This document shows, piece by piece, positions 3,525 to 3,944 of a stretch of DNA of 64,000 bases (the first letter of the stretch is position 1; each line of letters starts with the position of its first letter). A program made the position numbers and the translations under genes. Location: assembly GCF_009914755.1 (NCBI RefSeq), contig NC_060928.1. The stretch is one strand, 5' to 3'. The stretch is from the human T2T-CHM13v2.0 reference genome, Homo sapiens. The notes beneath the pieces were generated by a model. It had not been told where the DNA came from. It saw only the letters and a list, made by a program, of their open reading frames with translations, and did not search any database.

Positions 3525-3944
3525 GGATGTGCGCGGAGCTCACGCCTGTAATCCCAGCACTTTGGGAGGCGGAGGCGGGCAGATCACAAGGTCGGGAGAT
3601 TGAGATCATCCTGGCTAACACGGTGAAACCCCGTCTCTACTAAAAATACAAAAAATTAGCCATGAGTGGTGGCGGGAGACTGTAGTTCCAGCTACTCGGG
3701 CGGCTGAGGCAGGAAAATGGCATGAACCTGGAAGGCAGAGCTTGCAGTGAGCCGAGATCGCGCCACTGCACTCCAGCATGGGCCACAGAGTGAGACTCCA
3801 TCTCAAAAAAAAAAAAAGAAAAAGAAAAAGAAAAAAAGAAAAGAAAAGTAAAAGAAAATACCCTAGCAGTGAGCCGAGATCGCACCACTGCACTCCAGCC
3901 TGGGCGACAGGGCGAGACTCCGTCTCAAAAAAAAAAAAAAAAAA
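3525..3944 (+). mobile_element. AluY-type SINE with a duplicated 3' end (two tails)
   Basis: AluY diagnostics (ctggctaacacggtg, gagcttgcagtgagccgagatcg); first tail 3805-3860, second right-arm end 3867-3944; outer TSD aaaagcagctggca / aaaacagctggca. Confidence 0.93.

What the first reader, a model, noticed from the sequence alone, without database searches (positions are those of the whole stretch)
3745..3944. AluY carrying the tail and target-site sequence of a different Alu 6 kb downstream
Seen: the Alu at 3525 ends its first tail in aaaagaaaataccctag (3850-3866), then restarts mid right arm (cagtgagccgag, 3867) and finishes with a second tail and its own TSD. The same 17-mer lies at 9994-10010, where it is the tail end plus 3' TSD of the Alu at 9691. 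Both tails share an A4-7G pattern and the variant agagtgagactc, while the second copy has gggcgagactc. Inference: synthesis in the first Alu jumped by homology into the second, copied past its end into flank, then returned at ctag/cttg, adding ~122 bp. Several differences between copy and donor, mostly at CpG sites, argue for an old real event. An RNA-templated route from a read-through transcript of the 9691 Alu is an alternative.
Basis: partly seen in the sequence, partly recalled or inferred. Interest (0 to 1): 0.7.

Follow-up and report, generated by a model that had tools for sequence, protein, structure and literature searches.

The report
Alu patched from a neighbouring Alu
One Alu repeat on human chromosome 4 has a doubled end that carries the tail and flanking bases of another Alu 6 kb away, likely the scar of an old DNA break repaired by copying from the neighbour, and two clearer cases elsewhere show that such scars name their donor.

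Summary
The Alu at 3525 has 122 extra bases (3745-3866): a second right-arm end, a G/A tail and a 17-mer that matches the tail end and 3' target-site copy of the Alu at 9691. Of 6 genomic copies of the 17-mer, only these 2 sit at an Alu tail. The recipient is not a retrocopy of the donor, because it lacks the donor's 12-nt subfamily deletion. A partial genome scan gave two more cases, with donors 170 and 337 kb away on the same chromosome and strand. In both, the donor's private variants begin just upstream of the restart point, as homology-primed copying predicts. Ten other linkers searched gave no convincing donor. Most likely mechanism: break repair by one-ended invasion of a nearby Alu, overrun into its flank, then end-joining. 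This works like repair-mediated duplication (Pace 2009), in a form that pipeline excluded. No function is evident; apes could not be checked.

The parts
3509..3522 (+). 5' target-site duplication of the recipient Alu
   Evidence: 13 of 14 identical to 3940-3953
3525..3744 (+). Recipient Alu, left arm and first part of right arm; AluY type (label recalled), without the 12-nt deletion
3745..3804 (+). Extra right-arm end (copy 1); donor-derived or self-derived, unresolved
   Evidence: shares 1 of 4 donor departures and 0 of 2 copy-2 departures
3805..3849 (+). G/A-patterned tail, longer than the donor's
   Evidence: run lengths
3850..3866 (+). 17-mer identical to the donor's tail end and 3' target-site copy (the donor barcode)
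3867..3926 (+). Restart in the right arm (copy 2), inferred to be the recipient's original end; 1 nt of exact microhomology at the junction, 3 of 4 with one mismatch
3927..3953 (+). Second poly(A) tail and 3' target-site duplication of the recipient
9673..9689 (+). 5' target-site duplication of the donor Alu (C form)
9691..9970 (+). Donor Alu of the 12-nt-deletion lineage (AluYc/Yd) with an added short duplication in the left arm and a private 1-nt deletion at 9913/9914
9971..10012 (+). Donor tail and 3' target-site duplication (G form); the copied tract ends at 10010

Best explanation
The Alu at 3525 carries a doubled 3' end with the tail and target-site bases of the Alu at 9691, likely because an old germline break in its right arm was repaired by copying from that neighbour's DNA. 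Inferred steps: (1) the resident Alu broke near 3745; (2) the left end paired with the donor through Alu homology; (3) synthesis ran through the donor's tail into its flank; (4) the new strand came off and was end-joined to the untouched right end at 0-1 nt of microhomology instead of annealing to it, leaving 122 extra bases; (5) both copies then decayed and the tail lengthened by slippage. A collapsed replication fork with two template switches would give the same product and is counted in here. It is most likely a neutral scar.
For: Shown: the barcode and its uniqueness. One outer target-site duplication and none around the insert. The left arm is not the donor's: the 30-nt deletion motif has 703 copies, and the deletion marks a lineage. 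Chr11 case (L071 from L110, 337 kb, same strand): 22-nt linker equal to the donor's target site plus flank; 5 of 5 donor departures in the right ~105 nt are carried by copy 1 (one through a further change) against 2 of 7 to the left; 4-nt microhomology; the shared 36-mer occurs 3 times in the genome. Chr12 case (L116 from L132, 170 kb, same strand): 45-nt linker with one other match in the genome at up to 3 mismatches; copy 1 switches to the donor's type 8-42 nt before the restart point and carries its private 8-nt duplication; copy 2 keeps the resident type. All 3 donors are on the same chromosome within 340 kb. Pace 2009 reports 824 of 1,136 donors within 5 kb. No run of 4 T near any junction: +231 nt here, none in the 170 and 61 nt held for the other two.
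Against: At this locus the body gives no clear donor signal: 3 of 4 donor departures in the stretch, two of them non-CpG, are absent from copy 1 and must postdate the event. The junction microhomology is only 1 nt. The informative part of the barcode is about 8 non-A bases. A second Alu end on chr4 at 31.2 Mb has a G/A tail and the same 11-mer but with 4 extra bases. 10 of 12 other linkers searched gave no convincing donor. 3 of 3 donors on the same strand is not required by this model (chance 1 in 8). No outgroup empty site could be examined.
Confidence: 0.68

Rival explanations
1. RNA-templated patch: the right end of the break primed reverse transcription on a read-through RNA of the donor, starting in its flank; the cDNA ran through tail and right arm and then annealed to the left end by Alu homology. 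The product would be identical.
For: Sense-strand RNA could template this direction. 3 of 3 donors are same-strand. L1 cDNA recombines with breaks through homology in reporter cells (10.1101/2025.09.17.676864; abstract and two sections read).
Against: Free RNA should give donors from anywhere, yet all 3 are local. No junction lies at a T-run. The hub's table lists no transcript covering recipient and donor. No Alu 3' transduction was confirmed among 118,489 AluY (10.1101/2024.04.29.591526; parts 1-2 of 3 read).
Confidence: 0.12
2. A-rich entry only: the recipient duplicated its own 3' end, and only the tail and target-site bases were captured from the 9691 site through A-run pairing, possibly even before the donor Alu had inserted.
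For: Copy 1's body is about equally far from donor and copy 2. Self-duplications with the Alu's own flank as linker are common in the scan (for example L019, L021, L061, L077). The copy ends inside the target-site duplication.
Against: Copy 1 shares none of copy 2's 2 departures and shares two CpG decays with the donor (27% and about 11% background). It has the 3' G form. Both informative sister cases entered in the body.
Confidence: 0.1
3. Formed during the recipient's own retrotransposition: a truncated cDNA jumped to the donor locus, copied back through its tail, then switched to a full Alu template.
For: The event is nearly as old as the two Alus (3-4 private changes per 60 nt), and the whole compound lies within one target-site duplication.
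Against: It needs two extra switches. In the chr12 case the left part and copy 2 are both of the resident type, the simple result of patching a resident Alu.
Confidence: 0.07
4. Chance match: the linker came from elsewhere and resembles the neighbour's target site by accident.
For: Short barcode; one near-match at chr4 31.2 Mb and one looser on chr3 among 18 rows.
Against: About 5e-5 per locus and about 0.01 over the scan rows; two sister cases have long barcodes.
Confidence: 0.03

Closest known systems
Repair-mediated duplication (Pace et al. 2009, PMC2671141; parts 1-5 of 8 and passages read, supplements searched by term)
   Same: Short nearby DNA copied into a broken transposon; intrachromosomal; microhomology at the join; no new target-site duplication; attributed to strand-annealing repair.
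   Different: Here the donor is itself an Alu and entry is likely by homology, so the Alu end is doubled. Pace states that cases duplicating part of a transposon were systematically excluded. Its filters (first fragment under 95% of consensus, fragments within 30 bp) would also drop this one. Donors are at 6, 170 and 337 kb, beyond its 5-kb class.
Coupled homologous and nonhomologous repair / one-sided invasion (Richardson and Jasin 2000; Belmaaza and Chartrand 1994; titles seen in reference lists; content recalled, not read)
   Same: One end invades an ectopic homologue, synthesis passes the end of homology, end-joining closes the break.
   Different: Recalled as engineered reporters; these are natural germline products between endogenous Alus.
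Alu-Alu gene conversion (Doronina et al. 2021, PMC8230782; part 1 of 4 and passages read)
   Same: Hybrid Alus from one-way copying; that paper cites an earlier estimate of about 10 kb range.
   Different: Plain conversion changes no length and leaves the donor anonymous; here the overrun adds sequence and names the donor.
Alu 3' transduction (Halabian et al. 2024, bioRxiv 10.1101/2024.04.29.591526)
   Same: An Alu followed by the tail and 3' flank of another Alu.
   Different: Not a full copy of the source, no new poly(A) right after the flank, no terminator, local donors. That study excluded segments containing an Alu.
FoSTeS/MMBIR templated insertions (Verma and Greenberg 2016, PMC4888836; passages read)
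   Same: Brief copying of a nearby template and return at microhomology.
   Different: The first switch here is likely homologous; the product cannot be told apart from break repair by sequence alone.

Membership tests
Repair-mediated duplication (Pace 2009) | Insertion of at least 50 bp interrupting a transposon | tested here: met
   122 bp in an Alu
Repair-mediated duplication (Pace 2009) | Inserted DNA single-copy elsewhere, not a repeat | tested here: not met
   Mostly Alu end and tail; only the 17-mer is near-unique
Repair-mediated duplication (Pace 2009) | Donor within 5 kb | tested here: not met
   6.1 kb here; 170 and 337 kb in the sister cases
Repair-mediated duplication (Pace 2009) | Microhomology (2-9 nt), filler or deletion at the breakpoint | tested here: inconclusive
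   1 nt exact here; 4 nt plus a 6-nt deletion at chr11, 1 nt plus a nearby 4-nt deletion at chr12
Repair-mediated duplication (Pace 2009) | No terminal poly(A) and no new target-site duplication around the insert | tested here: met
   The insert ends in donor flank; none seen around 3745-3866
Repair-mediated duplication (Pace 2009) | Empty site in an outgroup primate | not testable with these tools
   No primate relatives are held (header)
Alu 3' transduction | Offspring is a copy of the source Alu, same subfamily | tested here: not met
   Recipient lacks the donor's 12-nt deletion
Alu 3' transduction | Flank followed directly by new poly(A) and target-site duplication | tested here: not met
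   Flank is followed by 60 nt of Alu right arm
Alu 3' transduction | Carried flank reaches a run of at least 4 T | tested here: not met
   First such run is 231 nt further on
Alu-Alu gene conversion | Donor-specific variants in the recipient body | tested here: inconclusive
   1 of 4 here; clear in the chr11 and chr12 cases
Alu-Alu gene conversion | Replacement without gain of length | tested here: not met
   122 bp gained
Nested Alu-in-Alu insertion | Host Alu sequence duplicated on both sides of the inner Alu | tested here: not met
   Upstream of 3525 is unique DNA that recurs only after the second tail; contrast L007, L008, L010
Local tandem duplication of an Alu end | Linker equals the Alu's own 3' flank | tested here: not met
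   Linker matches the 9691 site, not 3940-3953

The most novel reading that the evidence does not exclude
Read-through Alu RNA, still held near its own locus, is reverse-transcribed into breaks in Alus up to a few hundred kb away. These doubled-end Alus would then be a hidden, local form of Alu 3' flank transduction, which a dedicated search of 118,489 AluY failed to confirm.
Probability: 0.12. Interest if true: 0.75.

Novelty: new variant of a known kind. Interest (0 to 1): 0.45.

Why it matters
Ordinary Alu-Alu conversion hides its donor, so its range has been inferred statistically (about 10 kb, as cited in PMC8230782). These scars carry the donor's flank as a barcode, so donor, distance, strand and tract start can be read directly. 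Three cases already reach 6, 170 and 337 kb on the same chromosome. A full scan would give a natural record of how far a broken repeat searches for a template in the primate germline, and of how often repair from a repeat ends in end-joining. They can also be mistaken for Alu 3' transductions or for two insertions. This locus itself is intergenic and shows no sign of function.

Tried and rejected
(1) The T at 9952 as a subfamily marker that would date the tract: suggested by the display, rejected (29 of 30 family members have C). (3) Whole retrocopy of the donor: rejected. (4) Another Alu with the same flank: none exact; near-matches at chr4 31.2 Mb and chr3 were not fetched. (5) Donor searches without result: L025 (the linker looks like the second Alu's own target site), L067, L104, L072, L124, L123, L120, L112. 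L131 had one chr19 hit with a different tail, not fetched. L102's chr5 hit is another Alu's 5' target site with a non-matching body. (6) A crude script for shared tail flanks within the window caught only 9 tails and was uninformative. (7) Paper searches that gave no description of this structure in the listings: 0 hits; 0 hits; Pace only; subfamily naming; most subscription papers are not covered. (8) Pace's supplements showed no chr4 row under hg18 prefixes that I recalled; the prefixes may be wrong and the supplement store gave no answer. Supplements of the two bioRxiv papers were not seen and may list such loci. (9) PMC13174262 (outline only), PMC5402677, PMC4356517 and PMC12350158 (passages) added nothing specific.

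Full report
Observation. The Alu at 3525 runs to a G/A-patterned tail (3805-3858), ends in a 17-mer (3850-3866), restarts in the right arm (3867-3926) and has a second tail, all inside one 14-bp target-site duplication. The extra piece is 122 bp. The 17-mer equals 9994-10010, the tail end and 15 of 17 bases of the 3' target-site copy of the Alu at 9691; that Alu's 5' copy differs by one base, and the recipient has the 3' form. The genome holds 6 exact copies, and 2 of 6 follow an Alu tail, both in this window. By my reading 6 other rows of 17 show a tail running directly into the 10-mer core, among 259,830 Alu ends with that anchor. This gives about 5e-5 for a match among 8 assumed neighbours. 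A looser scan gave 18 rows, with one near-match on chr4 at 31.2 Mb that has 4 extra bases. Several differences between copy and donor argue against an assembly artefact.

What the Alu bodies say. The donor has the 12-nt left-arm deletion; its 30-nt motif has 703 copies, and papers assign the deletion to the AluYc/Yd lineage (passages). The recipient lacks it, so it is not a retrocopy of the donor. Against references built from 30 deletion-family and 13 AluY-type copies, the recipient differs at 29 of 286 and the donor at 17 of 273 positions. In 3745-3804 the donor has 4 departures, of which copy 1 shares one; copy 2 has 2, of which copy 1 shares none. The shared one is a CpG decay found in 42 of 155 Alu ends; a second shared decay at 3722 is found in 7 of 65. 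The event is old, on the scale of the two Alus themselves (inference from 3-4 private changes per 60 nt). The return junction has 1 nt of exact microhomology.

How general. Five exact-anchor scans for an Alu end followed closely by a right-arm motif gave 23, 32, 62, 99 and 27 rows, with overlaps. I read 93 loci: all 23, the first 30 of 32, then 20 of 62 and 20 of 126 picked by eye for non-Alu linkers. By eye most are nested insertions, duplications with the Alu's own flank, or have no linker. I searched 12 other linkers genome-wide and 2 of 12 led to a donor Alu. Chr11: recipient L071 (G000:C11:117154258-117154334, minus) carries the target site plus 11 further bases of L110, 337 kb away on the same strand. 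Copy 1 has 5 of 5 donor departures in the right ~105 nt (one through a further change) and 2 of 7 to the left; the shared 36-mer occurs 3 times in the genome. Chr12: recipient L116 (G000:C12:53054356-53054487, plus) carries 45 nt of the flank of L132, 170 kb downstream on the same strand, the only other match at up to 3 mismatches. Copy 1 changes from the resident type to the donor type 8-42 nt before the restart point and carries the donor's 8-nt duplication, while copy 2 is of the resident type (the AluY and AluS labels are recalled). Exact anchors see only a fraction of Alus and short overruns, so three is a floor, not a rate.

Mechanism. Shown: a resident Alu whose right end is doubled, with another Alu's flank between the copies, and in two cases a donor tract that starts just upstream of the restart. 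Inferred: a break in the right arm, invasion of a nearby Alu by the left end, synthesis past the end of homology, and end-joining to the right end (0.68, including the fork-collapse version). An RNA-templated patch gives the same product (0.12), but all three donors are local and no junction is near a T-run. At this locus alone, entry through the A-run (0.10), formation at insertion (0.07) and chance (0.03) remain.

Comparison. It works like the repair-mediated duplications of Pace et al. 2009, but fails two of their defining filters (single-copy insert, donor within 5 kb); the authors say that cases copying part of a transposon were excluded. It resembles coupled homologous/nonhomologous repair (titles seen; content recalled). 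It is not an Alu 3' transduction on three tested features; a search of 118,489 AluY confirmed none and excluded segments containing an Alu. My ten paper searches listed no description of this doubled-end, donor-barcoded form, but the library lacks most subscription papers.

Verdict. A real, old and probably neutral repair scar; a new variant of a known kind. Its value is as a readable record of donor choice between repeats.

Noticed in passing
window 6573-6677 and 7802-7901: A ~100-bp local duplicate 1.2 kb apart, about 95% identical, lying between recipient and donor. The first copy seems to interrupt an old LTR-like stretch (family recalled, not tested); it looks like a classic repair-mediated duplication.
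   Followed up: partly
window 9913-9914: The donor has a private 1-nt deletion 2 nt from the position equivalent to the restart point (0 of 43 reference copies have it). Coincidence or a scar on the donor; the two sister donors show nothing like it.
   Followed up: partly
L071 (G000:C11:117154258-117154334) and L110 (G000:C11:117491200-117491800): Second recipient-donor pair, 337 kb apart, same strand.
   Followed up: yes
L116 (G000:C12:53054356-53054487) and L132 (G000:C12:53223880-53224330): Third recipient-donor pair, 170 kb apart, same strand, different Alu types.
   Followed up: yes
L011, L019, L020, L021, L060, L068, L096, L097: Alus with a doubled 3' end and three copies of their own target site: either local duplications or two insertions at one site.
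   Followed up: no
L063, L070, L081, L087: Alus with a doubled 3' end inside one target-site duplication and no linker; could be the same process stopping within the donor's tail, where no barcode is left.
   Followed up: no
window 9769-9790: Short tandem duplication at the 12-nt deletion site in the donor's left arm.
   Followed up: no
window 3525-3537: The first bases of the recipient Alu depart from the reference at several positions, possibly an imperfect 5' join.
   Followed up: no
window 4833-5560: Cluster of 24-80 nt direct repeats (D5, D8, D13, D17), typical of a solitary retroviral LTR (family recalled as LTR12, not tested).
   Followed up: no
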